Of a DNA stretch of 64,000 nt, positions 25,247 to 52,446 are shown one piece after another; within the stretch, counting starts at the first letter, position 1; each line of letters begins with the position of its first letter. The stretch comes from a virus (taxonomy: Duplodnaviria; Caudoviricetes), in IMG/VR virus record IMGVR_UViG_3300012200_000001, positions 1 through 64,000 of that record. One strand, given 5' to 3'. Under the pieces are notes generated by a model. That model did no database searches. It saw nothing but the letters and a program-made list of their open reading frames with translations, and was not told where the DNA came from. The position numbers were made by a program, and so were the translations under genes.

Positions 25247-25400
25247 ACCGGAAATGGTGGCGCAGACTAGCTCAACGAATTGCCTACCCGAAAATGTGGC
25301 CGGTGGTTGTCTCGTATTGGATGCCGATGAACGATGAGACTGCGCCACCGCGAATCGGGGTTTCCGTTAATGGCACAGTGATTTGGTATGGAGTTCTAAC

Positions 25401-26969
25401 GTGAGCTACGTCACCTACCTCCGCGACTCGCTCCGCAACTTTGTCACGGGACTAGGTCAGCTCGGCGTCGATCCGAACAAGAGCGTTGAATACATTCTCA
25501 CGCTGTTGGATCGAAACACTCTCGAAAATATGTATCGCGGAGATTGGTTGGCTCGCAAGATAGTCGAAGCGCCAGCCGAAGACATGACGCGCGAGTGGCG
25601 CGCCTGGCAAGCAAACCAGCAGCAGATTGAGGCGCTGGAGTTGGTTGAGAAGACCCTGGATCTTCAGCGCAAGGTCAAGCAATGGATCAGCAAAGCTAGA
25701 TTGTACGGAGGCTCGGCACTCGTCATTGGCGTGGACGACGGTAATGATCCTAGCCAACCGCTTGATCTAGAAAAGTGCAGCAAGGATTGTCTGAAGTACG
25801 TGGTGGTGCTGCACCGCTTCGAACTCAATGCTGGTCCGCGCATCTACAACGTGATGGATCCCTACTACACGCGACCGGCCTATTACACCGTTGCGACGCC
25901 GATGTTTGGTTTTGAGGGCGGATCGGGGACGACGACGCCGTCGGTACGTGGACAGCCCGAGCAAGTGCCGGGTGCGGTCAATCCGGTCAAGAGCTTTTTC
26001 AGTAATGTGATTCCGTTTAGTAAAGGCCGACAACAAGAGCTAAGCACGATCCCCACAAACATGGGCATGACACAGATTCATCCCAGCCGCGTGCTCGAGC
26101 TTCCTGGCAATGAGCTACCCGACTGGCGGCTTGCTCCGCTCGGCGGCGGCTGGGGCGATAGCGTGTTGCAGACCGTGGTCGATACGGTCAACAGTTTCAC
26201 GGGCAGCATTCAATCCATTGCTGCAATGGTTAACGACGGCAAGATGGATGTTGTCAAAATCCCAAACATGGCGCTGAGCCTGATATCACCGGAATATAAG
26301 AACAAGATGCTTGATCGGTTCACTCTGTCGGCTCAGACCAAGAGTGCACTTTCCGTGCTGATATTGGACAAGGAGGAGGAGTGGGACCGGATACAGACCA
26401 ATTATAGTGGCCTGCCGATGATCTTGCATGAGTTCATCACTCTCATCAGCGGTGCGGCCAGTATTCCGGTTAGTCGTTTGTTCGGCACGGCATCGGGCAT
26501 GGGATTGCAGGGCGGCAGTACGAGCGGCGGGCCGGACGATGTGCGCAACTATTACGATGATTGCGTGAACAAGCAGAAGAACGAGATCGCGCCGCGCCTC
26601 GCAATGCTCGACCAGGTGATGATGCGCAGTGCGCTCGGTAAGGCCGATCCTAACATTCACTACGAATGGAATCCGCTGTGGCAACTCAGCGAAGGCGACA
26701 AGGCCAAGATCGGGCTTGAGAAGGCGCAAGCGACGCAAGTTTATGCAACCATTGGCATCATTAACGCGGATGCCTTCCGTGAAGGCGTGGTCAATCAGCT
26801 GATCGAGGATGGGACCTATCCGGGGCTCGACGATGCCATTGAAAAATATGGATCGGAACCAGAGGAAGGCGACGATACTGGAGGCTATCAACCCAGTGGC
26901 GAGCCCGCGCCCGATGCGAGTGGCGGAGGGAGTCCGGAACCAGGGCGGTTCAACTGGAAAGCATCATGA
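25401..26969 (+). CDS. Portal protein (DUF1073 / HI1409 family)
   Basis: YRGDWLARKIVEAPAEDMTREW, ARLYGGS, IHPSRV, GWGDSVLQ, IPVSRLFG, DVRNYYD, EWNPLWQLSE. Confidence 0.92.
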   Translation: MSYVTYLRDSLRNFVTGLGQLGVDPNKSVEYILTLLDRNTLENMYRGDWLARKIVEAPAEDMTREWRAWQANQQQIEALELVEKTLDLQRKVKQWISKARLYGGSALVIGVDDGNDPSQPLDLEKCSKDCLKYVVVLHRFELNAGPRIYNVMDPYYTRPAYYTVATPMFGFEGGSGTTTPSVRGQPEQVPGAVNPVKSFFSNVIPFSKGRQQELSTIPTNMGMTQIHPSRVLELPGNELPDWRLAPLGGGWGDSVLQTVVDTVNSFTGSIQSIAAMVNDGKMDVVKIPNMALSLISPEYKNKMLDRFTLSAQTKSALSVLILDKEEEWDRIQTNYSGLPMILHEFITLISGAASIPVSRLFGTASGMGLQGGSTSGGPDDVRNYYDDCVNKQKNEIAPRLAMLDQVMMRSALGKADPNIHYEWNPLWQLSEGDKAKIGLEKAQATQVYATIGIINADAFREGVVNQLIEDGTYPGLDDAIEKYGSEPEEGDDTGGYQPSGEPAPDASGGGSPEPGRFNWKAS

Positions 26970-28960
26970 CGCTTGCTCTCAGCCTCTGCGGGCCCCACCG
27001 TGCTCTGCCCACGCATGCAGAGCTGCAGGATGCACGGGCTGGGAAAGACCCGACCAAGACGTATTACCTACGCGCGCGCATGCGAGCGGAAGGTGACCGG
27101 CGCTGGCAGACGTTGGCGCAGACGGTGCGTCAGGCGTTGATCGAGCACGATCTCATAGGAATGCGCGGTATCGGTCGGCTCCCATATGCCGACAAGGCCG
27201 AGGGCTTTGCGGCGTGGCTGCGTGAGGAGCTGCGGCACAAAGTATTCGGCTTGGACGGCCGTTGGCTCAGACCGTACGTGCAGCAGGCGGCCGTGATCGC
27301 ACAGAAGCATGTGAACCAGTTAGCTCCTGGTGGGAAAGTTGACTCGACTCGAGTCGCTACCATGGAGAACTTTGCAGTCAGCGAGCTACGCGGCATCTGT
27401 GAGGCGGCGCAGCAGCAGATGATCCGGGTCGTGACGCATTCGATCATGGCCAACGATACGCCGACGCAAGCGGCCAATGCGCTATCCGGCGTGATCAAGA
27501 CCATGCGCAATCGCACGCGCGCTATGAGCGAGTATGTGATCGCCAAGACCCATGGCACTTGCACGCTCAGCGCATTCCGTGATGCCGGAGTGCAGCAGGT
27601 TGGGATCATTCCCGAGCGATTGCGCAAGCGGCGTGTTGTGCAGGGTCCGCACGGTAAGACGCTCGTGAGCGATTGGCTACGTAGCCATTCATCTCGCGTA
27701 ACTTTCTTCACTCACGAACGTGACATAAAAAAGTTACGTTCAGACAACCGCACGCAATCAAGGGACGCCAAGCAACCTGTCGGTGGCCCCGGCTCCCGTG
27801 TTAGCAGGACCGAGACGCCGTCGGCCGCCACGATTGCGCGTATCGAAAGGGCACAGGAGAAGATCGAAGAGGTCGAGGGGATAGGGGGCGTCGAGGTGGT
27901 CACGGCGGGCGACGAGGACGTGTGCGTCATCTGCGAAGATATAAGCGACGAGGGCCCTTACGATCTCGATACGGCGGAGTCGCTGATACCAGCCCACGCA
28001 TGGTGCCGATGTAGCTTTTACCCTGCCGGTGAAACGACGGATGCGCTTTGGGATTGGGATCCGGAGCAGCATCCACGCGGCAAGACGTCAGAGCAATCGA
28101 CAGGTGGAAGCTTTGCTCCTGGTGAATTACCGCTTTCGGGCGGTGGGGAACCAGAGCCGGGAAAGAACCGCTTTATCGAGGCGCTCGAGTCTGGCGAAGA
28201 AAAAATAGGCCAGACGTGGATGCAGCGCGGATCAACGCGAGATGTACAAAAGCTTGCGCGCGATGCGGTCGTCAGCGTTGGTGATGATAATTTCGAAACC
28301 GCAGTCATTGTTGGCGAGCATCGTCCCGACGGGACACTTGTCGGAGCTGCCCCGGCGGGGGGTGCTCATAGTGTTGGTGTGTCGCCGAAACTGATAGCCA
28401 AATTCGGGGTGCATGAGCTGCATCATAATCATCCGTCACCATTACCTGTTTCCGGCCCGGATATCAGCTTGCTCAATCGACGTCCCGGGGAGTTGGCGGT
28501 GTGGGCGCACACCGATGACGCCTCGTCGAAGGCTAGCATCCCTGGCCGTGATGCCGAGCATCCAAACATGTCGATTGTCGGGGATGCCGATCCCAATGTT
28601 TATACATTGCGGGAGCCAAAGCCGACTGAAGCCTTCGATAGGTTCTTGATGGAATATCACGACGAGGTTGGCAACGAAGCTGGAAACACCTTGCAGCGCC
28701 TTCAATACCAGCTGCGTAGAGAATTCGCAGACGAAAAGGAATTGGAGAGCGCCAACCGTTTTGTGCTCTATCATCCGCTGGTGCAAGGGCTGGTGAATGC
28801 GGGCCTGGTCAAGCATGATTATCAACCCGGGGCATTCGAGCGCGGGCTTTTGCGCAAACACGGTCGTGCCATCAAGCGGATCACCGAGATCGCTGACCGG
28901 GCCATGGCCGACGGAATCAAACGCCACAACCTGCATATCGCCGATGTTGGTCTCAATTGA
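26966..28960 (+). CDS. MuF-like head morphogenesis protein with a C-terminal JAB/MPN-like domain
   Basis: D..VC.IC...IPAHAWCRC MuF end; WDPEQHPRG linker; E...HNHP.....SGPD. Confidence 0.85.
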   Translation: MTLALSLCGPHRALPTHAELQDARAGKDPTKTYYLRARMRAEGDRRWQTLAQTVRQALIEHDLIGMRGIGRLPYADKAEGFAAWLREELRHKVFGLDGRWLRPYVQQAAVIAQKHVNQLAPGGKVDSTRVATMENFAVSELRGICEAAQQQMIRVVTHSIMANDTPTQAANALSGVIKTMRNRTRAMSEYVIAKTHGTCTLSAFRDAGVQQVGIIPERLRKRRVVQGPHGKTLVSDWLRSHSSRVTFFTHERDIKKLRSDNRTQSRDAKQPVGGPGSRVSRTETPSAATIARIERAQEKIEEVEGIGGVEVVTAGDEDVCVICEDISDEGPYDLDTAESLIPAHAWCRCSFYPAGETTDALWDWDPEQHPRGKTSEQSTGGSFAPGELPLSGGGEPEPGKNRFIEALESGEEKIGQTWMQRGSTRDVQKLARDAVVSVGDDNFETAVIVGEHRPDGTLVGAAPAGGAHSVGVSPKLIAKFGVHELHHNHPSPLPVSGPDISLLNRRPGELAVWAHTDDASSKASIPGRDAEHPNMSIVGDADPNVYTLREPKPTEAFDRFLMEYHDEVGNEAGNTLQRLQYQLRREFADEKELESANRFVLYHPLVQGLVNAGLVKHDYQPGAFERGLLRKHGRAIKRITEIADRAMADGIKRHNLHIADVGLN

Positions 28961-31900
28961 TCCGCCGGGATTGTTTGCAAAACCAGCACAGTGGCAGAGC
29001 TTTGTCGCTGATATGGAGCAGCGGCTAGCTGAGGGCCACGAGGATGCAAGGCCGTGGCTCGAATGGGGGCGCAAGCATCTCGGCACGCATGACTTCGATC
29101 CTGACCAGCCGCGCGACCCGCAGGGTAAATGGACTGGCACGGGAGGAGGGACTCCGGCCTATCATGGTTCGCCGTATGCCTTTTCCGAATTTGCGAGCAA
29201 GGTTGGCAGCGGTGAGGGCACGGATGCCTTCGGCCACGGGCTGTACTTTTCCGAGAACCGCGCGGTCGCCGAGCATTACCGGCGCGCGCTGAGCGGGCTG
29301 CGCGGGCAACCGGCGGGCGGCGTGCTGTACGAGGTCGATCTCGACGTCGAGCGCAGCAAGCTGCTTGACTGGGACAAGCCGCTAAGCCAGCAGCCGGAAA
29401 TCTCCAAAATCCTGCGCGATCAAATTGGAACGGCGGCGACGCCGTTCAGCGGCGAAACGAACAAGGATATTGCCGACCTGTTGCGTAAGGATGCGAAGGG
29501 CGAGGCGATCATGGAGAGGGTCAGCGGCTCCCCGCAAGGCGTTCTGCACAAGCTGAAGGAGGGCAGCGATGCGCTGCATGAGATCGGCATTCAGGGCGTG
29601 AAATATCTCGACAAGCGTTCGCGGGCAAAGGGTGAGGGTACGAGCAATTACGTCGTGTTTGATCCGAAGCGCGTCCACATCGTGCATGCCCACCAGTTTG
29701 CAGATGCTGCGAAGAAGGGCATCAGGGTCTTCTTCATGGGGCTGGGGCATCCGCATCAACAGCCAGCAGGCGGCGGAGACGCCTATGACGATGATCGGGC
29801 ACGCTACGATCCTGGTGAAATCAGCGTGCATGGTGGTGAGTTTGCACCGGAAGGCGGTGCGGTTGGCGGGCCTGATTACGAACCAGGCGGCGTCAAGTAT
29901 GAGGAAGGTCGGCGGCTTACCAGCAATTACATCGCCCGCGAAGCCTCTGGCTATAAGCCCAACTCACGTAAAGTGCCGGACGTTGCGCAGGAATTGAATG
30001 GCCGTGCGCAGAAAATTCTTCAGCAGGAAGTTAATGTCAAAGAAATCACGCGGGAGAACGCTACTCCGCAGCTTGAGAATTACATCGCTAAGACGTTGGC
30101 TATGGAGCTGAAGGACGGGTTGCGCAACGGTCATTCGACGGAGACGTGGTACAGCGACAAGATGCAGCGAACGATGCAGATTGCATCAAAGCTGCATCCC
30201 GAAATCAGCGCCGATCCAGGTAAACGGTTTGCGTTCATTGCTGCGCTTAGCATTGTTAGCCAGGGCGAGCGTGTTAACCGAGCCGGACGAAATGCCGATG
30301 AGGCATACACGCGCTTCAACAAAGACGGGAAATTTCCGACCGATATCAAGGTTGCTGATCCGAACATCACCGGCAATTTTCAGAAGATGAATAAGCTGAT
30401 TGCTCGCTTTGGCCTCGAAGGCACCAAGAAAATTTTTGATACCCAGTACACCAATCGTGATCTGCTTGAGGCGACTGGCTATAAAGTTGGCAAGACCAAC
30501 ATGGATGACAAGGTCTATGGGTCTGCTGTGTTGGGCCCGAAGATCGGACAGGGCTTTTATCAGAATCTGAATGGCAACTTTGACCCGCTCACGATGGATA
30601 TGTGGTTCATGCGTTCGTGGGGGCGTCTCACTGGCACTGGTATTGGCCATACCGACATGAACGAGCAGCGCGACAAGCTGCGAACCGAGCTGAAGCGCAA
30701 AGGCAAAGCAGCGCCGTCAAGCATGGAGAGGCTTCTGGGCATTGCACAGAAAACAATAGATGTGCATGAGGCTGACTATAAAGAAACACGTAGACCGAAG
30801 ACTCCGCTCGAACATGCCGCGGAGCGTTTTGTCTACAACTACAGTGGGGCGATGGTCGAAGCACCGAAGGGTGGCAATGATCGTATTTGGATTACATCGG
30901 TCTTCGATAAAGCGCTTAATCTCTTGCATAAGGAAGGAACTCATCTTACGCGCGCGTCTGGGCAAGCTACGTGGTGGACGCCTGAGCAAGGACTGTACAA
31001 ACGTCTTGGTGCGCGCGTCCCTCAATACGACACTGACTATGCTAAAGTGTTTGAGAGGATCGCCAGGGAAAAGGGCGTGACCGTGGATGCGAAAATGACA
31101 CTCGAGTTCGCGCCGTGGATCGATGATCCCGATTCGCCTGATAACATGACCGAAGCTGAAATGGATCGCATGGTCGAGGGCTTTGTCCATCTTCAAAGTA
31201 AAGCAGCAAGAGACTATGACCCGGATCAGCCGCGCGTACCAAAGGGTTCGGGCGAGGGTAGCGGAGAGTGGACAGCAGCCGGTGGCGGCGGTGGCTTTGA
31301 GTTTGTCTCGCCCAATATTGAGCACACCGGTTTCGAAGGTGCCCTACGTGGGCTGACCGGTGATCGACAGCGGGCCTTGCGCCTAGCGGCGACCGAGATC
31401 GATGGCACTCTCGGCCTCGACAGTGTCCACACCAACATTGTGGGAGCCTGGTCCGATGGTGCCGAGAACTCGATCCTGAGCGAGGTGGAAAATCCGGACT
31501 GGGACAAGCTCAAGCTCAGCGGTGCAATGAAGGGTTATCTGGCCGACCAGAAGTCGGTCCTGTTGTTCAAGCAGGACGACAAGGGTAAGGCGGTCCTTTA
31601 CAAGTGGGCGATGCCTGGTACGCTCGAGAGTGCCCACAGGGAGTTGATGCAGGCTGGTATTACGGACCACACCTTGCAGAAACAGACATCTGGCGTTACG
31701 GCATATGTAGTTGATCGAGACGGAAAATTGCATGACAAAATCGCCCACGCCTCCTCCGGGGCAGACGTCGAATACCAGTTCGGACGCGCAGAATTTATCG
31801 GAACTACAAAAGACGACGGAACCGACCGCCAGCAGCGAGACGACGCGCGAAGAGCTTATGCGGAAATTATCAAGCAATCCCCGATTCAAAATGGCACGGA

Positions 31901-32351
31901 AGTCTGGGACCGGGTTCACAATCGGTGGGGTGAAGCGCTAAATCCCAAGAGCGGCAAGGTCATTCAGATCGGCCGCAATCAGCCGTTTGAGGTGATGATC
32001 AATCCGAGTGAACGTGACTTGCGTAGCATGGTGCGCGAGTCTTCGGATCAAGAGATTCGTGTTTTACTCGATAAAGACAACAATCTATTTGCTTGGGATG
32101 CGCGGCATGCAATTCACGCTTCCGTTGAGGATGAACTACAGCTTAAGGCCAAGGAGTGGGATAATTGGATTTTACATCGCGGTAAGTTGGTGTCTGGACG
32201 CTATTTTCGCCCTAATCCAAATATTTCCGAGGATGTTCAGCGACGTCATTTGCGTCAGGGAGAGACCGAGGTTCGTAGTTGGTTAAAACAAGTTCCGGCA
32301 ATCGCCGCGTTCAATACAGCGCTTAGGGATGCGTCAGCTTCGATGATATGA
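28944..32351 (+). CDS. Polyvalent head-associated protein: ART-like + HhH-like + unknown domains
   Basis: YHGS...G.GEG..FG.GLYFS...NYVVFDP; GPKIG.GFYQNL.G...LTMDMWFMR; three DP.QP/DPGE linkers. Confidence 0.8.
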   Translation: MLVSIDPPGLFAKPAQWQSFVADMEQRLAEGHEDARPWLEWGRKHLGTHDFDPDQPRDPQGKWTGTGGGTPAYHGSPYAFSEFASKVGSGEGTDAFGHGLYFSENRAVAEHYRRALSGLRGQPAGGVLYEVDLDVERSKLLDWDKPLSQQPEISKILRDQIGTAATPFSGETNKDIADLLRKDAKGEAIMERVSGSPQGVLHKLKEGSDALHEIGIQGVKYLDKRSRAKGEGTSNYVVFDPKRVHIVHAHQFADAAKKGIRVFFMGLGHPHQQPAGGGDAYDDDRARYDPGEISVHGGEFAPEGGAVGGPDYEPGGVKYEEGRRLTSNYIAREASGYKPNSRKVPDVAQELNGRAQKILQQEVNVKEITRENATPQLENYIAKTLAMELKDGLRNGHSTETWYSDKMQRTMQIASKLHPEISADPGKRFAFIAALSIVSQGERVNRAGRNADEAYTRFNKDGKFPTDIKVADPNITGNFQKMNKLIARFGLEGTKKIFDTQYTNRDLLEATGYKVGKTNMDDKVYGSAVLGPKIGQGFYQNLNGNFDPLTMDMWFMRSWGRLTGTGIGHTDMNEQRDKLRTELKRKGKAAPSSMERLLGIAQKTIDVHEADYKETRRPKTPLEHAAERFVYNYSGAMVEAPKGGNDRIWITSVFDKALNLLHKEGTHLTRASGQATWWTPEQGLYKRLGARVPQYDTDYAKVFERIAREKGVTVDAKMTLEFAPWIDDPDSPDNMTEAEMDRMVEGFVHLQSKAARDYDPDQPRVPKGSGEGSGEWTAAGGGGGFEFVSPNIEHTGFEGALRGLTGDRQRALRLAATEIDGTLGLDSVHTNIVGAWSDGAENSILSEVENPDWDKLKLSGAMKGYLADQKSVLLFKQDDKGKAVLYKWAMPGTLESAHRELMQAGITDHTLQKQTSGVTAYVVDRDGKLHDKIAHASSGADVEYQFGRAEFIGTTKDDGTDRQQRDDARRAYAEIIKQSPIQNGTEVWDRVHNRWGEALNPKSGKVIQIGRNQPFEVMINPSERDLRSMVRESSDQEIRVLLDKDNNLFAWDARHAIHASVEDELQLKAKEWDNWILHRGKLVSGRYFRPNPNISEDVQRRHLRQGETEVRSWLKQVPAIAAFNTALRDASASMI

Positions 32352-32487
32352 CCGAAGGAGGGCGCGTTCAGGTTGAATGGGGGCTTCCTTAAAGACGCAA
32401 AGTCGAGTAATTACGATTTGATGCAGGGAATCGTTTCTGAGTCCGAGGCTGGCCGTCGGGGAGACACGTCGGCCACGGAGCAGATGA

Positions 32488-35400
32488 ATGCCTTACAAGG
32501 CAAGCCAGATCCCGAGCGGGACTGAGAAGGTTCCCAAGCACGGTCAGGCTATTTTCCGATCAGCATTCAATGCCGCCTTCGAGAAGTATGGCGAGGAGCG
32601 CGCGCACGCGATTGCGTGGTCGGCCGTTAAAGCAAAATATAAGAAGAAGGGCGACCGCTGGGTCAGCAAGGACGGATATGCCGTCATGCATCGGCTCGGG
32701 GACTACGACCCCGATCAGCCGCGCGTACCTGCCGGTGAATCAGGTGGCGGTCAGTGGGCTGGCGGCGGCGGTGGCCCCGCCGGTCGCGGCGAGCTGCATC
32801 TGACCAAGGCAGAAGGACTATCTGAAAAACCCGAGATCGCACGCACCTTTGGTTTTGGTCAGGGCATCGAAGGAATAAGCGGCGGGCTTGGAGGCGCTGA
32901 GGGAGAACTTGGTGCCGGGACATTCGGCAAAAGCGAACCTGCTGGTGGCGCGAAGGCCTCACCCGGCGTTCCCAAGGAATTGGTGAAAGCCATTGAGGAT
33001 CACGTCGGCGGGATGGGTGGTGAATTTGGCCAGCACGGCAGCGCCGATCTCACCAGGTGGCTGATGCTCGCGCGCAAAGACCAGATGCTCAAACTCATCG
33101 ATGACATGCCAGCCAACAAGCGGCCAGCGCTGCTGCTGCACAAGGGTGATGAGAAGGCGGGCATGCCGTCAGTATGGTTGTTGGGTTGGAGTGGGACCGA
33201 GCAGACGGACATCCACGATCATGTTCGTTCCGAAGTCGGCATTTCGGTGTTGCGCGGTAATATTGCCAACGAATGGAATCATCCTCCTGCGGGCTATCTC
33301 GATGCCGCGAAGAGCCCTGACGGGCTGCGTATGCCGGTCAACAAGGACACGTTGCCCGAAGGCACAACTGTGCAGCTCGAGGCTCCGTATATCCACCTGA
33401 TGCGCGGCACCGCGCCGTCGAAGGCGTCGGGAGAGCGCGACATTTCGGTGCATGCATATCACCCGCCACTCAAGCAGATGCACTATTTCAAATCTCGAGG
33501 CGGTGCGCTGCATTACGACGGCGATTGGGATGAGGATCGCCCGCCGTCCGAATATTCGACTCGCGATTGTGCTTGCTGTTCGTTGCTTGACGAGGCGGCA
33601 GGCCATCCGTTCCGAGGTAACCAATATACGACGGGAGAGAGCGGCGGTGGCAATGGGCAACCAGCTGAGAGTACCGGTGAGCATGGTCAGAAGGTTAAGG
33701 CATTCCTCAGCTTATCGTCCGCTAAGTCGGTCATCAGAAGCGCAATCAATGAAACGATCAGGGCTGGAGAGCACATCGTAAAGCATGAATCCGAGATCGC
33801 CGTAACGAGCGGCATCCTCGCTGCCTTGACGGCGTTGGGTGCGCCATCGGTGCCAGCGGCAGTCTGTGCCACGATTGCTGGTTATGCGGTGCACCGCGTG
33901 GCCCATAGTCTTGGCATCGATGCCGGAGCTGCACACCGCTTATTGAAGGCCACGACCGGCGGGCTGCGGAATATGTCTGAACGAGCAAGGCGCTCTGGCA
34001 TGCATGGCGGCGGCTTCCCCGAGCAGGCATTAGGTTTCGGCGATGCGGATGACGGTTCCGTCTCCCGGTCTTTGCGCTTGCTCGACGATGCATTGAATCG
34101 TCACACACTCGATGAGCTTGATAGATTTATCGAGGAGTACGAATCCGGCCGCTTCCATCGGGATGAAGAGGCGGGTCATCCATTCCGCGGCAACCAGTAC
34201 ACCACGGGTGAAAGCGGTGGCGGAAAAGGCGAGGAGGGCGGCGGAGGGCGAGGCGGTGGTGGCGAGGAGGTCCATCCCGGGAAGGGCTACTCGAAGGAGG
34301 CCCGCGTTGACGAGAAAGGCGTCATCCATACCGAGAATGTTGATGATGCAGCGCGTGCGCTTACCGAAGGGCGCAAGGTTGAACTGAATCAACCACGGCA
34401 AGTCTCAACCTTGCTCGACAAGCTTGGTGAGATAGCCAAAGCGGCGCTCGCTAAAGGCGAGAAGGCTCCAAATTTTAATTTGTGCGATGTGTCGGTAAAA
34501 GGCACCAACCTGTTCTGCGCGGAGACTAAAGGCTTCACGCGCATTGAGATGCCGCAGCTCGAGGATACCAAAGGTTTCCTCGATTACCTGAAGGCTCGAG
34601 GCCACACGGTAAAAGACGGCGAAGAATATGCGGCGCACTTGCGAGCAACACAGAACGAACTGAAGGGCGCGCAGGTCGCGGCCCTCGCCAATTTCATGGA
34701 GACCGGCATCGGTAAGGACGGCAAGGTCGACAAGGAAGCAGCCGCTAAGCTACAAGACCGGCCCATCGTTATTAGCAAGGACGATTACATTCTCGATGGC
34801 CACCATAGCTGGGCGGCAAAAATTGGCATGGACGCGCGCGACAACATCTTGGCTGACGACAAAAAGATGAATGTGCGCCGGGTCGACACCGACATCATCA
34901 CATTGCTGTACGCCGCCGATGACTTCACCGGGGGTAAAGGGAAAAAAAGCGCAAAGGATCGCGCAAAGGATCGCGTCATGATGGACCAAAGGAAACAATG
35001 TCCCGGGTGTTACGGGAGCGGTTTGGACCTTGAAGGCGACCAGTGCGATGAATGCGACGGTACTGGTTATATCGATAATGACGATGATGATGTTGAGGAT
35101 GGCCGACGACGGCAGACAGATTCGATACATCTCATCGAGAACGCCGTATTTGTCCAAGATCGCGATGGCAAGATCGTACGCAAAACCAAGGATGGCTACC
35201 TCGTAGCGAATGCACGTATCGCTCGTACCGGCATTCAGCTCTACGACGGAGCAGAGATCGGTAAGCCCGACATGGGCGTGGTGCGGGTCTATCGACCGGA
35301 GAGCGAAGTCTTCAGCGCCAAGGCGATGCACAGCCTCGCGAACAAGCCGATCACGCTCAATCATCCGCCGGTCATGGTGGATGCGAAGAATTGGGACGAA

Positions 35401-36336
35401 TACGCGGTTGGTCACATAGGTGAGGAAGTCGCGCGCGATGGTGATTCGGTGCGCGTGCCGCTGGTGATCATGGATAGCAAGGCCATTGAGGCTTACGAGA
35501 AACATGGCGTGAAAGAATTGTCAGTTGGCTATTCGACCGACTTGCGGTGGGGCAAGGGCCGCACACCGGATGGTGAAATCTACGATGCCAAGCAGACTGC
35601 GATACGCGGGAATCATCTGGCCGTCGTCCCCGCTGCCAGAGGCGGATCGCGATTGAAGATCGGGGACGATCACCAGAAAGGAAGGACCGACATGGTGAAG
35701 ATTCTCGTAGACGGTCAGAGCATCGGGTTCGAGGACGAACTCGCTGCCAAGCACGTACAAAACTTTATCGGATCGCTGCAAACGCAGTTGGATGCTGCCA
35801 GGAAAAAGAACGGCAACAACAATAACAAGGAGGGCAGTGCTGCCGAGGAAGAGCAGGAGAGCGAGAAGGAAGAGCGCGGCGAGAAGGATGCTGCATTCGC
35901 GGCCATGAAAGGCGAGGTGGCGGCGCTCAAGAAGCAACTCGCTGACGCTCTTGCCAAGACTGATCCCAAAGCCATCGATGCGGAGGCGGAGCGGCGGATC
36001 GATCTGCTGCTGAAGGCCGATGCCGTGATGGAGGGCAAGGCCGACTTCAAAGGCAAGCCGGATACGGAGATCGTGCGCACCGTCGTCATGACTAAGATGG
36101 GCGATGCCGCTAAGGACCTCTCCGACGCCGAGATGGTGGGCGCATTCAAAATCCTGACTGCGAACCTCAAGCCGCGTTCAGGCACAGACCGTCTCGCAGA
36201 TAGCTTGTTGCTGCTCGGTCATGGCGGCGGCAGCAGCGATCAGACCAATCCCAAGGCGATCAGAGACAAAGCCTACGCGGATTATGTCGCCAATACCTCG
36301 AACGCCTGGAAGAATCCTCGCGGCGCGGCACAGTAA
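32488..36336 (+). CDS. ChaB + cargo domains + DUF2213 prohead protease/scaffold fusion
   Basis: N-terminal MPY...P.H.Q.IF..AFN.A...E.AH..AW.AVK..Y (ChaB); PIVIS.D.YILDGHH (ParB-like); DGYL.A.ARIARTGIQLY...NKPITLNHP...KELSVGY...GNHLAVV..ARGG (DUF2213). Confidence 0.9.
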   Translation: MPYKASQIPSGTEKVPKHGQAIFRSAFNAAFEKYGEERAHAIAWSAVKAKYKKKGDRWVSKDGYAVMHRLGDYDPDQPRVPAGESGGGQWAGGGGGPAGRGELHLTKAEGLSEKPEIARTFGFGQGIEGISGGLGGAEGELGAGTFGKSEPAGGAKASPGVPKELVKAIEDHVGGMGGEFGQHGSADLTRWLMLARKDQMLKLIDDMPANKRPALLLHKGDEKAGMPSVWLLGWSGTEQTDIHDHVRSEVGISVLRGNIANEWNHPPAGYLDAAKSPDGLRMPVNKDTLPEGTTVQLEAPYIHLMRGTAPSKASGERDISVHAYHPPLKQMHYFKSRGGALHYDGDWDEDRPPSEYSTRDCACCSLLDEAAGHPFRGNQYTTGESGGGNGQPAESTGEHGQKVKAFLSLSSAKSVIRSAINETIRAGEHIVKHESEIAVTSGILAALTALGAPSVPAAVCATIAGYAVHRVAHSLGIDAGAAHRLLKATTGGLRNMSERARRSGMHGGGFPEQALGFGDADDGSVSRSLRLLDDALNRHTLDELDRFIEEYESGRFHRDEEAGHPFRGNQYTTGESGGGKGEEGGGGRGGGGEEVHPGKGYSKEARVDEKGVIHTENVDDAARALTEGRKVELNQPRQVSTLLDKLGEIAKAALAKGEKAPNFNLCDVSVKGTNLFCAETKGFTRIEMPQLEDTKGFLDYLKARGHTVKDGEEYAAHLRATQNELKGAQVAALANFMETGIGKDGKVDKEAAAKLQDRPIVISKDDYILDGHHSWAAKIGMDARDNILADDKKMNVRRVDTDIITLLYAADDFTGGKGKKSAKDRAKDRVMMDQRKQCPGCYGSGLDLEGDQCDECDGTGYIDNDDDDVEDGRRRQTDSIHLIENAVFVQDRDGKIVRKTKDGYLVANARIARTGIQLYDGAEIGKPDMGVVRVYRPESEVFSAKAMHSLANKPITLNHPPVMVDAKNWDEYAVGHIGEEVARDGDSVRVPLVIMDSKAIEAYEKHGVKELSVGYSTDLRWGKGRTPDGEIYDAKQTAIRGNHLAVVPAARGGSRLKIGDDHQKGRTDMVKILVDGQSIGFEDELAAKHVQNFIGSLQTQLDAARKKNGNNNNKEGSAAEEEQESEKEERGEKDAAFAAMKGEVAALKKQLADALAKTDPKAIDAEAERRIDLLLKADAVMEGKADFKGKPDTEIVRTVVMTKMGDAAKDLSDAEMVGAFKILTANLKPRSGTDRLADSLLLLGHGGGSSDQTNPKAIRDKAYADYVANTSNAWKNPRGAAQ

Positions 36337-36393: not shown

Positions 36394-36876
36394 ATGTTGA
36401 CTCCGGCCCCCGTTCAAACCGACTACATTCGCTATCAACTTCCCGCCCAAAACGGGATGCTTGCTAGCTCGATCAACTACTCGGCGGACACGCGGATTGT
36501 AGAGGTCGTCAGTGGCGGTGCCACTGCTATCCCGTTTGGTCGCGCCGTCAGTCAAGGCGTAAAACCCAAAGGCTGCCACCTCGGCGGCACCGCCTTTGTG
36601 GGCCTTTCCCGCGCTGATCCGACGGTCGCTCGCTCGGAGACTCTTCCTATCGATGAGTATCCGGAGAACGACAACGCGGGCATCCTGGTGACCGGCGACC
36701 TGTGGGTCATCGTTGCCGGTGATGTGACTGCTGGCCAGTCGATCCATTACAACACAACCGACGGCAAGCTTAGCGCCGCCGGTGGCACCGCCATCGACAG
36801 CTCACGCTGGATGACGACGGCTACATCTGGCCACCTCGCCGTCGCACGTCTCGGCAACATCGCTGGCAAAGCGTAA
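36394..36876 (+). CDS. Head decoration / cement protein
   Basis: Between scaffold and MCP; IPFGRAV, G.LWV, W.T....G.LA..RL. Confidence 0.75.
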   Translation: MLTPAPVQTDYIRYQLPAQNGMLASSINYSADTRIVEVVSGGATAIPFGRAVSQGVKPKGCHLGGTAFVGLSRADPTVARSETLPIDEYPENDNAGILVTGDLWVIVAGDVTAGQSIHYNTTDGKLSAAGGTAIDSSRWMTTATSGHLAVARLGNIAGKA

Positions 36877-36897
36877 ACAGCGCTCAATACGGGAGAC

Positions 36898-37866
36898 ATG
36901 AATATGCGCCTTGATATCTACGACAACCCTCAACAGGCGCTCGGCTTCCTGTTGAGCCAGACTGCTTTCATCGAGCAGGAAGTTTACCGGACGCAATACC
37001 CGGAAATAATTTATCAGCAGCTCATTCCTATCGACACCGCTGCTGGTGAGTGGGCCAAATCGGTCACCTACTTCAGCCTCGACCGGGTCGGTCAGGCTCA
37101 ATGGCTGAGCAACGTAGCGACCGATATGCCGTACGCCGATGTCAATCGTAATAAGTACGAGCAAGGCATCGAGATGGCTGGCATTGGCTACACCTACACG
37201 CTCGAGGAGATCGGCCAGGCGTTGATGATTCCTGGTTTGAACCTCACCGGGGAGCGTGCCGACGCAGCAAGATTCTCCTACGAAATGTTCATGGACAACC
37301 ATGCGTATCGTGGAGATGCGACCAAGAACGTGACCGGATTGTTCAACAATCCGACCGTCACGGTGGTCACAGCGAAGACCGGTGCAGGAGGTTCGACGCA
37401 CTGGTCGCTGAAGACGGCGGACGAGATCATCGGCGATGTGCAGGATGCTCTCACCGGCATTTACGCAGGAAGCCTGACCGTTGAGATGGCGGACACGGTG
37501 TTGCTGCCAGTTGGCGAAATGCAGAAGCTCGCCAACATTCGCATCCCGAATACCTACGGCAACGCACTCGACTATCTGGCTCGCTACAATCTCTACACGT
37601 TCAACACAGGTGCGCCGCTCACGATCCGCGGTGTGATTGGTCTCGACTCTGCGGGCGCAGACGGTGGCGGACGCATGGTCGTATATCGGCGCGATCCGCG
37701 TGTGCTCAAGTTACACATTCCAATGCCGCACCGCTTCCTGCCGGTGTTCCAGCGTAGTGCGATCCAGTTCGACATCCCTGGCATCTTCCGCGTTGGCTCC
37801 GTCGAGGTTCGGCGTCCGGGTGCCGTGCGGTATGTCGATGGCATCAGCGGTGTTGGGTCGCCCTAG
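36898..37866 (+). CDS. Major capsid protein (DUF2184 family, HK97 fold)
   Basis: FL.SQ...IE..VY..QYP, G.GY.YTLEE.GQA, GLFNNP, GRMVVYRRDP..L...IPMP..F, GSVE.RRP.A..Y.DGI. Confidence 0.92.
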   Translation: MNMRLDIYDNPQQALGFLLSQTAFIEQEVYRTQYPEIIYQQLIPIDTAAGEWAKSVTYFSLDRVGQAQWLSNVATDMPYADVNRNKYEQGIEMAGIGYTYTLEEIGQALMIPGLNLTGERADAARFSYEMFMDNHAYRGDATKNVTGLFNNPTVTVVTAKTGAGGSTHWSLKTADEIIGDVQDALTGIYAGSLTVEMADTVLLPVGEMQKLANIRIPNTYGNALDYLARYNLYTFNTGAPLTIRGVIGLDSAGADGGGRMVVYRRDPRVLKLHIPMPHRFLPVFQRSAIQFDIPGIFRVGSVEVRRPGAVRYVDGISGVGSP

Positions 37867-47257: not shown

Positions 47258-50200
47258 ATGGCGACCGACGAGATCATTAAGATAACTTTCGGGCTCGACA
47301 CAGGTGATGTCGCCTCGAAGGCGGCGGATGCGGGTAAACAGTCCGCTACCGCTTTCGAGGCGGGGTTTAAACCGAAGATTGACATTGTCCCTATTCCTAC
47401 GAGCCAGACGGCGGCAAAAGTTGCTTCCTCATATGCGGATGCGATTAGGAAGCTTTTGACGCCGGAAATTGAGAAATCATTTTTCGACATTGACTTCGCT
47501 AAAACAGGTTTCGGCAAAAACATTCACGAAGCGGTCAGGAAAGCTGCCGAGACGGCTCCTCCAACCCCCGCTGCCCTTCCTGCGATTGATCCAAGAGCGA
47601 CAGCGGAAACTATTGCCCATGGAATGAAGCCGGTCGTCGCCGGTTTGGAAGCTTTCACCGCCTTATTGAAGGGTGCCCCGCTGGGGGCAGCTGCTGCACT
47701 GGCGGTGCAGGGATTTGCACCAGAGCGAGAGCGGGGGCGGGGCGGCATACCCATTGCTCCGCCGCTTGGCGGAGCAGCACATGAGACTGAGGCTCAAAGA
47801 ATAGAGCGAAGACTTGCAGCGATTCCCGGCGCCGTTCCACCTGAACCCAGTGGAGTTGGCGGCGGCTTAAAAGCAGCCGGTGCGGGTGCCGCCGCAGGAG
47901 CTGTGTTTGGCGGCCCCGGATCGATCATCGGCGGTGCCATAGGCGGAGCGCTTGGATTTGCTACTCCAGTCCCAGGAGCAACAGCGGCTGGAATTGCTAC
48001 CGGCATTGTTATTGGCAAGGCAGCCGAGGACGTAACCAAATCTATTTTCGGAGCTGGTGAAGCTGTCGAGGATATGGCCGAAAAGGCATCTCGATTGGAC
48101 ATCGAGCTGTTGAATATGGCCAAGACGCTGAACACCACGCCAGCGCAGCTCTTGCGAATGCGCCATGAGGTGGCAGCGACTGGAGGGGATTTCGATAGCT
48201 GGGGCCTTTCACTGCAACGGCTGGCGGTTCATGCAAAACAGCAGATGCCGGAGATTGAACGGCAGGTCGAGCTTTCCAGCGATGTCATAACGGAATCCAA
48301 TATCAAGGTGGCAGAATCTACGCGCGGTGTTGCAAAGGCGCGAGATGATGAGCAGGCAGGTATAGAAAGAGTTGCCAAGACTAGAGGTGAGTTAGAAAAG
48401 TTTGAAGCGACGCGCGCGCAGGAGCGAGAGCAACAAGCTCGAGCTGCTGCATTGGCTGTGACCGGAGCGCAAATTGGTCTGCGTGGTGCGCAGATGCAAC
48501 GGGCGCAGGCAGGTATCGGCCTCGCCTTTGCGCCACAAGAAGCACGCCAAGCTGATATCGCTGGACCATTGACTGTTGAAGGTGCCCGGCTGGGTCGTAG
48601 AGGCGCGGGAATTGCTCTTGAAGAAGCCCAAGCGCGTTGGCGACGATTCGATACCGGCGAAGAAGAAGACCCCGATGTTGTAGAGCAGCGGCAGCGAAGA
48701 AAGGAAATTCTGGCAGTCCAGACTGCTCGCCACAATTTTGAAGACAAGAAACTCGCTGAAGACAAGGCGGAAACAGCCGAGCAGAAGCGGGTGACGATGA
48801 GGGGAGCTGGGCTTGGGCCTGAAGCGCAGGCTCAACAGCAAGCCGATCAAGCTGCTCAAGCCGAAGACCAAGCCAAGCTGCATCTCGAGCGGGTCACGAC
48901 CGCTCAAACAGGATTAAAAATTCTACAGGAGACCAACACGCTGCAGATGGAGGGCAATGAACTGCAGCGGCAACTAAACGAAGCGTTGCGTAATCAGCTT
49001 ACTGGGCCGGAGGCAGTGCAGCGAGCGGAAGCAAAGCTGCGAAAGGACATACAAGAACAAAAGAAGGTTCCGTATGGAGACGTACTAACAGTTCAGAGTG
49101 CAATCGAAGCCTTTCAGCGCGGCGAGCCGGTTCCCGGCTTTAAGTTTGAGCAGGTAGAGCCCGGGGCATTACGCGGCGCGCTCTTTCGTATGGGTGGCGG
49201 CAGAGCGAGCGATATTGTTGAGCGGTTGTCTGAGTACATACGCGGTCCAGCAGGAGAAGATCAGGCCGAGCAGTTACGCGCCATTGCCGAGGTCATCCCC
49301 GGTCGGCGTGGTGAGCGGCAACGAATGCAGATGTTGGACTATTTGAAGCTCTCGCCGGAAGAGCGAGCCGGTTTATCGACACCCAAAGATATCGAAAGGT
49401 TTCAGCAGCTAGAATCAACCATGCTGGGCAGGGAACCGGCAGCCCGAGGGTATTTAGCTCAACAGGGGATACGAGCCCTTGACGAACAAATGCGCGGGAT
49501 GGTCACAGGGCTCGAAGGCATAAATGTGGGAGGGAAGGTTTCGGCATTTGGTGAAGCTGTTGACCAGATTACGGACGCGGCAAAGCGAGTTGGCATCAAT
49601 ATCCCTGATTATCTTGCCATAGCACAAGGCGCGATCAAGGGAGCTGCAGATGCGCTCCACGACGCGGTTGCGAGCAAGGCCGGTGAAATAAAAGCCATTG
49701 TAATCGGTCCTCCAACTCCTACTCCAGCTCCTACTCCTACTCCTACTCCTGCAGAGCGAATTAAGGGTGGGTTTGAAGCAATCGAACAGCAAACCGGTGG
49801 TTTGATTTCTGGTCCCGGATCGGAGACTAGCGATTCTATTCCGATCAGGGCTTCGCATGGCGAGTTCATCATCAAAGCGGAGCGCACGCGAGCATTGGGA
49901 GTGTCGTTCTTAAATGCGCTGAATGAAGGCAAGCTTGACTTTGCTAAAGGCGGTATCATTCCGCGTTTCCAGGGCGGCGGTCCTGTTGTGCGTACGGTGC
50001 GCCCGCCCGGTGATGATGAGTATTGGAAATGGGTTGAGGCCAGCGGGATTCGACCAAATCGCGCGGAATGGAATGAAGTCAAAGCGGCGGGACTAGATCC
50101 GAATACATCCTTCGACGCAGACGGCAGCCTCAGCCCAGAGGCCGCAGCTAAGATCAAGACCCACAAGGCAGCAGCACCCAAACCAACCACGACAACGCAG

Positions 50201-51973: not shown

Positions 51974-52444
51974 ATGATCACTCTCACCAACGGCACACTG
52001 CTAGTTCTTACGCCGCTGTCGGGTTTTGCGTCGCTACAGCTGACACCATTTGCAGCGCGCGGGCTTACGCAAACTCTTGAATTGATAAAGGGCGGCGGCG
52101 GGGGTGGTGGTGGTTGGCTGAGACGTGACGTGAATGGCATTCTGCGCTCCGTCGTAGACACGCGCTTTCGAAAATACAGAAGCACGGTCACGTGCAAGGA
52201 CGGCGAAACGCCTTGCCTCGATAATGCGTGGATCGGCGAGCCCGTGCTGGTCAGTTGTGCCTACGAGCTGAGCTATCCGACTGGAGCCTCTCCCGGGCGG
52301 CCCGTCGTGAGCGGCTCCACACGTACACAGGGCACCGTGACCTATTACCGCCCAGAACTTACCATGATGGTTGCGGATATCAGACTGTCATTGCCGGAAT
52401 GGCAAGCGCAGTATGATTGGCAAATTGATTTAGAGGAGATTTAA
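51974..52444 (+). CDS. Distal tail protein-like
   Basis: Follows TMP; RR.VNG.L...RKYRST..C.D...W.I.LEE. Confidence 0.65.
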   Translation: MITLTNGTLLVLTPLSGFASLQLTPFAARGLTQTLELIKGGGGGGGGWLRRDVNGILRSVVDTRFRKYRSTVTCKDGETPCLDNAWIGEPVLVSCAYELSYPTGASPGRPVVSGSTRTQGTVTYYRPELTMMVADIRLSLPEWQAQYDWQIDLEEI

Positions 52445-52446
52445 AC

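What the first reader, a model, noticed from the sequence alone, without database searches (positions are those of the whole stretch)
26966..36336. Three consecutive head genes built as motif-delimited cargo polyproteins
Seen: seven related Gly-rich linkers separate distinct domains across MuF, the 28944 protein and the protease gene: WDPEQHPRG (28049), DFDPDQPRDPQGKW (29091), RYDPGEISVHGGEF (29802), DYDPDQPRVPKG (31212), DYDPDQPRVPAG..GGQW (32701), and EAGHPFRGNQYTTGESGGG twice (33589, 34162). The last two are near-identical in protein but differ at most synonymous sites, so the peptide is under selection. Known: MuF proteins carry polymorphic C-terminal toxin domains, and polyvalent phage proteins are delivered with DNA. 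Inference: the linkers are capsid-targeting or processing tags for a packaged and injected effector set of at least six domains, an unusually large load for a DUF1073/2213/2184 head.
Basis: partly seen in the sequence, partly recalled or inferred. Interest (0 to 1): 0.85.

Follow-up and report, generated by a model that had tools for sequence, protein, structure and literature searches.

The report
Header-tagged cargo cassettes in phage head genes
Three head genes of this 78-kb phage string enzyme modules together, each module preceded by a short conserved "header" peptide that recurs in many uncultivated phages and marks where modules are swapped, so it is probably a loading or processing tag for proteins carried in the capsid.

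Summary
All seven motifs lie at the stated coordinates and occur nowhere else in six frames of the complete 77.9-kb genome. They fall into two sequence classes. Class B is [FYW]-D-P-x-Q-(H)-P-R...G-x-[WF], then a Gly run (five copies, one degenerate). Class A is GHPFRGNQY plus a Gly run (two copies, 18 identical residues, 13 codons differing synonymously). Both classes are widespread in viral contigs, but class A is nearly absent from 596 Gb of cellular genomes. Homology blocks shared with phages whose portals are about 70% identical start and stop at the motifs. Stand-alone homologues of the same modules carry a header near their N-terminus, and no header lies near a C-terminus. The same module is headed by class A, B or related variants in different phages. 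Header-led genes sit next to portal, MuF and protease genes in other head lineages too. These are therefore header+spacer+module cassettes fused to MuF and to the protease-scaffold. Their role as a capsid-loading or processing tag is inferred, not shown. The load is not unusual for this clade. The protein class is known (polyvalent proteins, Iyer 2017). I found no publication describing the header. Earlier notes of this scan report similar headers on other DNA.

The parts
25383..26969 (+). Portal protein (context; start of the head module)
   Evidence: Pfam PF06381 Phage_portal_3, E 3e-85
26966..28045 (+). MuF-like minor head domain, aa 1-360 of the 664-aa protein, ending in a CxxC...CxC zinc ribbon
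   Evidence: PHROG minor head protein / head morphogenesis hits, E 5e-7 to 5e-6, on aa 278-360. Pfam gives no hit. It is 50-70% identical to post-portal genes of relatives. The stand-alone homologue L135_9065 (316 aa) ends where this domain ends.
28049..28114 (+). Header 1, class B, HPR variant (WDWDPEQHPRG...GGSF)
   Evidence: homology to relatives' MuF stops at aa 353-360 just before it
28148..28957 (+). MuF C-terminal cargo module, RadC/JAB-like by motif (HNHPS...SGPD at aa 487-499)
   Evidence: The motif was read from the sequence. Pfam gives no hit and the Atlas gives only weak JAB leads. The one homologue, P0356, has a 2H/Acb1-like domain, then an HPR-type header, then this module.
28944..32351 (+). 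P2: 1135-aa cargo-only gene with no head-structural domain; its ATG overlaps the MuF stop by 17 nt
   Evidence: no homologue in the close relatives apart from the header itself
29091..29150 (+). Header 2, class B (DFDPDQPRDPQGKW + TGTGGG), after a 49-aa leader
29157..29678 (+). ADP-ribosyltransferase module (ART-PolyVal)
   Evidence: Pfam PF18760, 33.3 bits against a cut-off of 31.2 when the segment is scored alone. Homologous modules occur in internal virion proteins of T7-like Burkholderia and Ralstonia phages.
29802..29843 (+). Header 3, degenerate (RYDPGEISVHGGEF); resembles the FNPYHEPGG..GGxF variant seen in front of the same module elsewhere
   Evidence: P0012, P0038
29901..31088 (+). 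Module b (P2 aa ~320-715): all-alpha domain with an HhH-GPD DNA-glycosylase-like fold
   Evidence: The AF2 model has pLDDT 88 and pTM 0.80. The top 22 VIA-align wide rows include HhH-GPD DNA glycosylases, two queuine-salvage DUF2419 entries and one phage base-modifying enzyme (Z 10.2-6.6). K533 and D552 are invariant and 19 residues apart. There are 8895 relatives at E<=1e-10 across the P2 modules combined. Pfam, PDB sequence search and Foldseek gave no hit.
31212..31295 (+). Header 4, class B (DYDPDQPRVPKG...GEW + TAAGGGGG)
   Evidence: In the AF2 model the header has pLDDT 50-77, while the domain behind it is above 90.
31290..32348 (+). Modules c1 (aa ~783-1000, tandem ferredoxin-like alpha/beta) and c2 (aa ~1000-1135, low-confidence model)
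   Evidence: AF2 model. Foldseek gives only weak hits, best E 1e-3. Of 63 c1 homologues, 35 have a recognisable header within 90 aa upstream: 23 class B, 11 HPR, 1 class A.
32488..36336 (+). P3: 1282-aa cargo + prohead protease + scaffold polyprotein
32521..32670 (+). ChaB domain
   Evidence: Pfam PF06150, E 4.7e-16. ChaB is a common N-terminal addition of DUF2213 proteases.
32701..32775 (+). Header 5, class B (DYDPDQPRVPAG...GGQW + AGGGGG)
   Evidence: In relative L125 the same ChaB is followed by a class A header instead.
33154..33495 (+). Cysteine-dioxygenase-type cupin module
   Evidence: Pfam PF05995, 30.8-33.9 bits against a cut-off of 23. The cassette aa 66-364 recurs at 1028-1313 of the L135 portal fusion.
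33598..33651 (+). Header 6, class A (AGHPFRGNQYTTGESGGG)
33655..34152 (+). Module 3, unknown, with a hydrophobic helical stretch at aa ~437-470
   Evidence: read from the translation; no Pfam or Atlas hit
34171..34224 (+). Header 7, class A (AGHPFRGNQYTTGESGGG)
34255..35067 (+). Module 4 (unknown; phrog_2859) followed by a DnaJ-type CxxCxGxG zinc ribbon
   Evidence: There are 82 stand-alone homologues of 180-483 aa, most with a class B, HPR or NPYH header near the N-terminus. Distant homologues occur in cultured phages, including an 'unknown structural protein' of Dickeya phage XF4 and the giant F116 gp59.
35182..36333 (+). DUF2213 prohead protease (aa 899-1060) and C-terminal scaffold
   Evidence: Pfam PF09979, E 6.8e-50. 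PHROG 530 head maturation protease, E 6.5e-90. Cultured-phage homologues cover only this part. No header lies directly in front of it.
36394..37866 (+). Cement protein and major capsid protein (context; end of the module)
   Evidence: Pfam PF22758 and PF09950; neither carries a header

Best explanation
The three genes are phage 'polyvalent' head-internal proteins assembled from cassettes. Each cassette is a short conserved header peptide (class A, GHPFRGNQY, or class B, [FYW]DPxQ(H)PR..G.[WF]), a glycine-rich flexible spacer, and one effector module. Cassettes are fused behind MuF, which is portal-associated. They are inserted between ChaB and the protease-scaffold, which enters the procapsid as scaffold. 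In P2 they stand behind only a 49-residue leader. I propose that the header is a portable head-incorporation signal, working like a capsid-targeting sequence. It would be recognised by a component of the assembling head, and it (or the spacer behind it) may also be where the polyproteins are cut. Separate enzymes would then lie in the capsid and leave with the DNA. These enzymes are an ADP-ribosyltransferase, a glycosylase-like module, a JAB-like module, a cupin and several unknowns. Shown here: the motifs, protein-level selection on them, the cassette structure, swapping at headers, the N-terminal position of headers, head-module context and restriction to viruses. Inferred: packaging, recognition partner, cleavage and ejection.
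For: (1) The motifs occur only in these three genes of the genome. The two class A copies are identical in 18 aa but differ at 13 of 18 codons.
(2) Blocks shared with relatives start and stop at headers. P3 aa 66-364 matches L135 1028-1313. P3 aa 366-828 matches L135 605-1034, so the order is reversed there. P3 aa 563-825 matches L125 67-330. MuF homology ends at aa 353-360. Six of 9 block ends lie within 10 aa of a header, which covers 14% of the region (P=5e-4).
(3) Position is asymmetric. In 267 complete header-bearing ORFs, a quarter have the first header within 26 aa of the start. Only 5% have fewer than about 96 aa after the last header. Some leaders are as short as 3-10 aa.
(4) The same module is headed by class B, HPR, NPYH or A variants in different proteins. 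ChaB is followed by class A in L125 and class B here.
(5) The A and B sets share the same anchors: MuF, three portal families, and S78, S78_2 and DUF2213 proteases. They also share the same cargo families: ARTs, Zeta toxin, topoisomerase IB, 2H and DUF3626.
(6) Arrays of small header-led genes lie directly behind a Mu-type portal, MuF or an XkdF-type protease in unrelated head lineages.
(7) The exact class A motif gives 117 stretches in viral contigs but 8 in 596 Gb of cellular genomes.
(8) N-extended DUF2213 proteases without cargo lack headers (2 of 73). The header therefore travels with cargo and is not a generic linker.
(9) A PHROG 'head maturation protease' profile matches a B header with its first 39 positions. 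Some proteases, which must themselves enter the procapsid, therefore appear to begin with the header.
Against: There is no direct evidence that any module is in virions or that the header binds or is cut by anything. A 9-residue motif conserved across phages with three portal families and at least three protease families is hard to reconcile with a fast-evolving phage-specific receptor. Classes A and B share no demonstrable core. The AF2 model gives the header only pLDDT 50-77. Fused cassettes already have an anchor, so a targeting signal seems redundant there. No header precedes the protease domain, so cutting at headers alone would leave module 4 attached to the protease.
Confidence: 0.5

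Rival explanations
1. The headers are only cleavage sites for the prohead protease. The polyproteins ride in on MuF or the scaffold and are cut at each header, and the header has no targeting role.
For: The protease is encoded at the end of one of the polyproteins. Iyer et al. 2017 predicted processing by C-terminal assemblin-like peptidases. Homologous modules in protease-less head types carry no header: T7-like Bp-AMP1 gp40, vir555, phiGT1 gp5 and F116 gp59. Class A records are enriched for XkdF-type protease: 15 of 27 against 6 of 27 for class B (P=0.024), and 4 of 4 complete class A records.
Against: Headers often sit 3-26 aa from the N-terminus of stand-alone cargo genes, where a cut would release nothing. 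The capsid, cement, portal and scaffold parts of this phage have no header. The same class A header is used with DUF2213 here and with S78_2 elsewhere. Three complete B-bearing genomes match none of seven prohead-protease families, which is weak evidence because a diverged protease cannot be excluded. The correlation with protease family may simply reflect lineage.
Confidence: 0.2
2. The header acts after or during ejection. It could be a threading or exit signal for passage through the portal and tail channel, or a motif recognised by a conserved host factor once the cargo is inside the cell.
For: Extreme conservation across otherwise unrelated head lineages points to a partner that is itself conserved. 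The header is always N-terminal to a module and is followed by a flexible spacer.
Against: There is no known host-binding motif of this sequence. Two sequence classes rarely mix within one phage region (12 of 246 loci). Headers are more alike within a locus than between loci (0.34 against 0.25 identity at variable positions). Both findings fit a phage-encoded partner better.
Confidence: 0.12
3. The header is a self-processing element, for example a labile Asp-Pro bond in class B or Asn-dependent cleavage at G-N-Q in class A, that separates modules without a protease.
For: Its conservation does not depend on head lineage. D-P is invariant in class B, and G, H, F, G, N, Q are invariant in class A.
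Against: The two classes share no candidate catalytic residue. The motif is only about 15-20 aa long and has no confidently predicted structure. N-terminal copies would have nothing to release.
Confidence: 0.06
4. The motifs are passive: flexible joints, or recombination scars inherited with the cassettes, without a function of their own.
For: They lie at recombination breakpoints and are followed by low-complexity glycine runs.
Against: Nine of nine residues are identical in 117 viral stretches in front of unrelated modules. The copies within this genome diverge at synonymous sites. Different header classes sit before the same module. Headers are absent from other domain junctions of the same protein families.
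Confidence: 0.05

Closest known systems
Phage-type polyvalent proteins (Iyer, Burroughs, Anand, de Souza, Aravind 2017, J Bacteriol, PMC5512222)
   Same: These are multi-effector polypeptides in late or structural gene context. They include fusions to MuF and portal, an assemblin-like protease at the C-terminus, and ART-PolyVal, RadC/JAB-like and ParB-like cargo. Packaging and injection are predicted for them too.
   Different: A term search of that paper for 'linker', 'glycine-rich' and 'GNQ' finds nothing. 'Glycosylase', 'ChaB' and 'cupin' are likewise absent. Giant polyvalent proteins that hold module b or module 4 elsewhere usually lack the header, so the header defines a subset.
T4 internal proteins with the capsid-targeting sequence (IPI-III, Alt) cut by the gp21 prohead protease
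   Same: A short N-terminal peptide on otherwise unrelated cargo, head-internal location, delivery with the DNA, and an ADP-ribosyltransferase among the cargo. This comparison rests on established knowledge and the reviews listed.
   Different: The sequence is unrelated, since the T4 sequence ends in L/I-x-E. Here the tag also occurs internally between modules of polyproteins, is followed by a glycine spacer, and spans several head lineages. Targeting and cutting are not shown here.
MuF polymorphic toxins of temperate phages (Jamet et al. 2017, BMC Biol, PMC5576092)
   Same: An N-terminal MuF domain with a variable C-terminal toxin or effector domain.
   Different: A term search of that paper for 'linker', 'conserved motif', 'boundary', 'cleav', 'demarcat' and 'glycine' finds nothing. 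Here the cargo also sits on the protease-scaffold and in a separate gene, in an apparently non-integrated 78-kb phage with terminal repeats.
Encapsulin cargo-loading peptides
   Same: A short conserved peptide plus flexible linker that loads diverse enzymes into an HK97-fold shell (established knowledge).
   Different: Encapsulin peptides are mostly C-terminal and bind the shell protein. Here the tag is N-terminal to its module and its partner is unknown. No sequence similarity was tested or claimed.
Demarcating motifs of polymorphic toxins (VENN in CdiA, DPxGL in Rhs)
   Same: A conserved short motif marks the junction where variable toxin modules are exchanged (established knowledge).
   Different: Those motifs belong to secreted bacterial toxins. 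The class A header is almost absent from cellular genomes and occurs many times per protein.

Membership tests
Phage polyvalent proteins (Iyer 2017) | Two or more unrelated effector or enzymatic domains in one polypeptide of a phage or mobile element | tested here: met
   P2 holds ART-PolyVal, a glycosylase-like module and c1/c2. P3 holds ChaB, a CDO cupin, module 3, module 4 and the protease.
Phage polyvalent proteins (Iyer 2017) | Hallmark domains of the class and virion-structural context (MuF/portal fusion, assemblin-like protease at the C-terminus) | tested here: met
   ART-PolyVal PF18760 scores above its cut-off. The DUF2213 protease is C-terminal, and relatives also hit Peptidase_S78. 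The genes lie between portal and capsid genes.
Phage polyvalent proteins (Iyer 2017) | Packaged in the virion and delivered with the DNA | not testable with these tools
   This needs virion proteomics. The only indirect support is that homologous ART modules sit in annotated internal virion proteins.
MuF / SPP1 gp7 family (Pfam PF04233) | Match to the family profile | tested here: inconclusive
   Pfam gives no hit at E<=1. PHROG minor head protein / head morphogenesis families hit aa 278-360 at E 5e-7 to 5e-6.
MuF / SPP1 gp7 family (Pfam PF04233) | Gene directly downstream of the portal gene in the head module | tested here: met
   The gene starts at 26966 and overlaps the portal stop at 26969. 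The position is the same in all relatives.
DUF2213 prohead protease-scaffold (PF09979) | Profile match and C-terminal scaffold region | tested here: met
   PF09979 E 6.8e-50. PHROG 530 covers aa 885-1278 at E 6.5e-90.
T4-type capsid-targeting sequence | N-terminal targeting peptide ending in an L/I-x-E protease site | tested here: not met
   The header consensus is KGD..GHPFRGNQY or FDPxQPRD..G.W. This is an analogy of position only.
T4-type capsid-targeting sequence | Sufficient to load foreign proteins into the procapsid and removed by the prohead protease | not testable with these tools
HhH-GPD DNA glycosylase superfamily (module b) | Two-lobed helical fold with a helix-hairpin-helix | tested here: inconclusive
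   VIA-align Z 10.2 (rmsd 4.2, 195 aligned). The top 22 rows include HhH-GPD glycosylases, two DUF2419 entries and one phage base-modifying enzyme. Z below about 13 can arise by chance for helical models, and Foldseek found nothing.
HhH-GPD DNA glycosylase superfamily (module b) | Catalytic Asp about 20 residues after the hairpin (plus Lys in bifunctional enzymes) | tested here: inconclusive
   K533 and D552 are invariant and 19 residues apart within GPKIGxGF...P.T.D. Their equivalence to catalytic residues was not checked in a structural superposition.
RadC-like JAB domain (MuF C-terminal module) | HNHPS...S-x-x-D metal-binding motif and profile match | tested here: inconclusive
   The motif HNHPSPLPVSGPD is present at aa 487-499. 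Pfam gives no hit at E<=1. The Atlas gives only weak JAB leads, 0.83-0.85.
Cysteine dioxygenase type I cupin (PF05995) | Profile match above the curated cut-off | tested here: met
   30.8-33.9 bits against a cut-off of 23. Enzyme activity is not testable here.

The most novel reading that the evidence does not exclude
The class A and class B headers are interchangeable forms of one portable capsid-loading (and possibly release) tag. Many tailed phages across several portal and protease lineages would use it to mark proteins for packaging and injection. Scanning for the header would then list a phage's injected effector set, and fusing it to any protein would load that protein into capsids.
Probability: 0.35. 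Interest if true: 0.85.

Novelty: new variant of a known kind. Interest (0 to 1): 0.62.

Why it matters
Proteins that phages inject with their DNA include anti-defence and host-takeover enzymes, and they are hard to recognise from sequence. A short tag that heads such modules would give a sequence-based way to find them. Most of the modules behind it have no known family, for example module b with thousands of relatives and no Pfam entry. The tag would also explain how cargo sets are reshuffled between phages, and it would offer a handle for loading chosen proteins into capsids. In this phage it also points to unusual cargo: a glycosylase-like enzyme, a cysteine-dioxygenase-type cupin and a JAB-like module.

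Tried and rejected
- Profile-profile comparison of classes A and B aligned only the aromatic-Thr-Gly tail (probability 11%), so common origin is not claimed.
- Literal motif strings in 8.4 million papers gave no relevant hit. Term searches of Iyer 2017 and Jamet 2017 found no linker or motif terms.
- Pfam at E<=1 found nothing for the MuF C-terminal module, modules b, c and 3, and only a zinc-ribbon match for the module 4 segment.
- PDB sequence and profile searches found nothing significant.
- Foldseek found nothing for module b and only weak ferredoxin-like hits for c1.
- The ESM Atlas gave weak JAB leads for the MuF C-terminal module and nothing for P3 modules 3-4.
- Cultured phages gave no close relative of the region and no homologue of c1. 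Phages holding ART or module 4 homologues (phiGT1, Tunturi_5, Bp-AMP1, vir555, F116) have no header, so I found no model phage with proteomics.
- A combined alignment of all P2 modules misaligned module c and was dropped in favour of per-module alignments.
- Protease survey: three complete B-bearing genomes matched none of seven protease families. One of them has an unassigned 483-aa gene before the scaffold-like and capsid genes, so absence of a protease cannot be concluded.
- A frameshift fusion of MuF and P2 was considered. P2 has its own ATG overlapping the MuF stop, and nothing requires a fusion.


Full report
**Context.** The window belongs to a complete 77,862-bp viral record with direct terminal repeats. 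The region is a head module. It contains a portal (PF06381, 25383-26969), a 664-aa MuF-like protein (26966-28960) and a 1135-aa protein, P2 (28944-32351). A 1282-aa protein, P3 (32488-36336), follows, ending in a DUF2213 prohead protease and scaffold. A cement protein and a PF09950 major capsid protein close the module. Cultured phages match only the last ~390 residues of P3.

**Observation.**
- Five are of class B: aromatic-D-P-x-Q-(H)-P-R, a few residues, G-x-[W/F], then a glycine run. One of these is an HPR variant in MuF and one is degenerate (RYDPGE...GGEF).
- Two are of class A: AGHPFRGNQYTTGESGGG.
- A six-frame scan of the whole genome finds these patterns in no other gene.
- The two class A copies are identical over 18 residues but differ at 13 of the 18 codons, all synonymously. 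The peptide, not the DNA, is therefore conserved.

**The motifs are widespread in viruses and rare in cells.**
- The exact 9-mer GHPFRGNQY occurs in 117 stretches of IMG/VR. My rough estimate of the chance expectation is below one. The wider consensus is h-x-K-G-D-[FY]-x-G-H-P-F-R-G-N-Q-Y-[TSV]-x-G-x-G-G.
- In 596 Gb of bacterial and archaeal genomes the class A pattern occurs only 8 times.

**The motifs are headers of mobile modules.** I compared the three proteins with phages whose portals are about 70% identical.
- Shared blocks begin and end at the motifs. The B-header+cupin block (P3 aa 66-364) lies at 1028-1313 of a 2088-aa portal fusion in L135.
- The block A-header+module 3+A-header+module 4 (aa 366-828) lies upstream of it there, at 605-1034. 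The order is therefore reversed.
- In L125 the protease gene has ChaB, then a class A header, then module 4 (P3 aa 563-825 = 67-330), without the cupin or module 3.
- MuF homology ends at aa 353-360, just before the MuF header. A stand-alone MuF of 316 aa ends at that point.
- Six of nine block ends fall within 10 residues of a header, although such windows cover 14% of the cargo region (P=5e-4).
- P2 has no counterpart in these relatives except the header itself.

**Position of the motif within proteins.** In 267 complete header-bearing ORFs from the viral loci, the first header has a median position of 53. A quarter lie within 26 residues of the start. Only 5% of ORFs have fewer than about 96 residues after the last header. 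The motif therefore precedes a domain-sized stretch and is practically never a C-terminal tail.

**Homologues of this phage's own modules show the same pattern.**
- Module c1 homologues begin with leaders as short as 3-10 residues followed by a header. Thirty-five of 63 have a recognisable header within 90 residues upstream, and several more show diverged forms such as FNPYH...GGxF.
- Among 82 stand-alone homologues of module 4, 46 match a header pattern, and more carry visibly diverged variants.
- The single homologue of the MuF C-terminal module has a 2H/Acb1-like domain, then an HPR header, then the module.
- The same module is headed by class A, B, HPR or NPYH variants in different proteins. 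The classes are therefore positionally interchangeable, although a profile comparison aligns only their aromatic-Thr-Gly tails (probability 11%).
- The classes rarely mix in one phage region (12 of 246 loci). This phage and its clade are in that minority.
- N-extended DUF2213 proteases that carry only ChaB or zinc ribbons almost never have a header (2 of 73). The header comes with cargo and is not a general interdomain linker.

**Context elsewhere.**
- Header-bearing proteins of both classes show the same anchors: MuF, three portal families, and S78, S78_2 and DUF2213 proteases.
- They also show the same cargo families: two ART families, Zeta toxin, topoisomerase IB, 2H phosphoesterase and DUF3626. 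PBECR1 and DarA_N appear in the A set only. Most of these proteins have no Pfam domain at all.
- In L087 and L089, arrays of small genes with a header at residues 21-43 follow a Mu-type portal, MuF or an XkdF-type protease gene.
- Homologous modules in T7-like internal virion proteins, phiGT1 and the giant F116 gp59 carry no header. Most giant proteins holding module b lack one as well.

**Protease link.**
- Of 27 class A records, 15 encode an XkdF-type (S78_2) protease (4 of 4 complete ones), 2 match S78 and none match DUF2213.
- Of 27 class B records, 6 match S78_2, 7 match S78 and 4 match DUF2213. The difference for S78_2 has P=0.024.
- This may reflect function or only lineage. The window's own genome has DUF2213 and no S78_2, yet it uses both header classes.
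- Three complete class B genomes matched none of seven protease families. In one of them an unassigned 483-aa gene precedes the scaffold-like and capsid genes, so absence of a protease is not established.
- In that phage a PHROG 'head maturation protease' profile matches a header with its first 39 positions. Some proteases therefore appear to begin with the header.

**Cargo.**
- ART-PolyVal passes its Pfam cut-off.
- Module b gives a confident all-alpha model (pLDDT 88). Its 22 best wide-search rows include HhH-GPD DNA glycosylases, two queuine-salvage DUF2419 entries and one phage base-modifying enzyme (Z 10.2-6.6). It has an invariant Lys and Asp 19 residues apart. This is a lead, not a proof, because the Z-scores are in the range that helical models can reach by chance.
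- Across the P2 modules combined, the search found 8895 relatives at E<=1e-10. Module b has no Pfam family.
- Module c1 is a tandem ferredoxin-like domain of unknown function.
- The cupin passes the CDO_I cut-off.
- The MuF C-terminal module has a RadC-like HNHPS...SGPD motif but no profile support.
- Module 3 has a hydrophobic helical stretch.
- Module 4 is a widespread unknown.

**Interpretation.** What is shown is the architecture: header+glycine spacer+module cassettes under protein-level selection. They are exchanged at the headers, restricted to viruses and located in head modules.

The most economical function is a portable signal that brings a module into the assembling head, possibly doubling as the place where polyproteins are cut. 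This would parallel the T4 capsid-targeting sequence. The N-terminal position in stand-alone genes argues against a pure cleavage-site role. The absence of headers from other junctions, and their conservation before unrelated modules, argue against passive linkers. A post-ejection role or self-cleavage cannot be excluded.

The load is not unusual for this clade.

**Prior knowledge.** The protein class was described by Iyer et al. 2017. Term searches of that paper and of Jamet et al. 2017 find no mention of such a motif, and literal motif strings are absent from the searchable literature. Earlier notes of this scan report similar headers in other phage genomes. I treated them as leads and tested the claims on this locus.

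Noticed in passing
L135:2636-8902 (contig IMGVR_UViG_3300005764_001037): In a relative the portal is fused in one 2088-aa frame to cargo cassettes (headers at aa 611, 778 and 1659). These include the same cupin and module 3/4 blocks as P3, but in reversed order. A separate 316-aa MuF follows.
   Followed up: partly
window 29901-31088 (P2 aa 320-715): Module b belongs to a very large family without a Pfam model; P2 as a whole has 8895 relatives at E<=1e-10. In many other proteins module c1 lies directly upstream of it with no header between, the opposite order to this phage.
   Followed up: partly
L275, L277, L278, L280, L281 (Ideonella, Rhodocyclaceae, Luteimonas, Propionivibrio, Hydromonas genomes): Five of the eight class A matches in bacterial genomes belong to one recurring context, ...DGDFxGHPFRGNQY[RK]K.S..SG.AV.AS..AK..., probably one prophage-borne family. 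Its neighbourhood was not examined.
   Followed up: no
P0356 (429 aa): The only homologue of the MuF C-terminal module has an N-terminal 2H/Acb1-like phosphoesterase domain (HxT...HxT), then an HPR-type header, then the JAB-like module. It looks like a candidate anti-signalling pair.
   Followed up: no
window 33790-33900 (P3 aa ~437-470): Module 3 contains a long hydrophobic, Ala/Gly-rich helical stretch that could insert into a membrane, which is unexpected for capsid cargo.
   Followed up: no
L284 (Pseudomonas phage F116 gp59, 47838-54227 of NC_006552): The 2129-aa 'methyltransferase' of F116 holds a distant homologue of P3 module 4 at aa ~830-961. No header was found in the 1794 residues examined, so this is a header-less polyvalent protein in a cultured phage.
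   Followed up: partly
L286:712-5040 and L288 (G037, 54,445-bp complete genome): A 1443-aa post-portal polyprotein has four class B headers and ends in a polynucleotide-kinase-like module. No known prohead-protease family was detected in the genome. An unassigned 483-aa gene lies before the scaffold-like and capsid genes.
   Followed up: partly
window 28944-28960: The P2 start codon overlaps the MuF stop by 17 nt and has no obvious Shine-Dalgarno sequence, suggesting translational coupling. P3 has GGAG 8-9 nt before its ATG.
   Followed up: no
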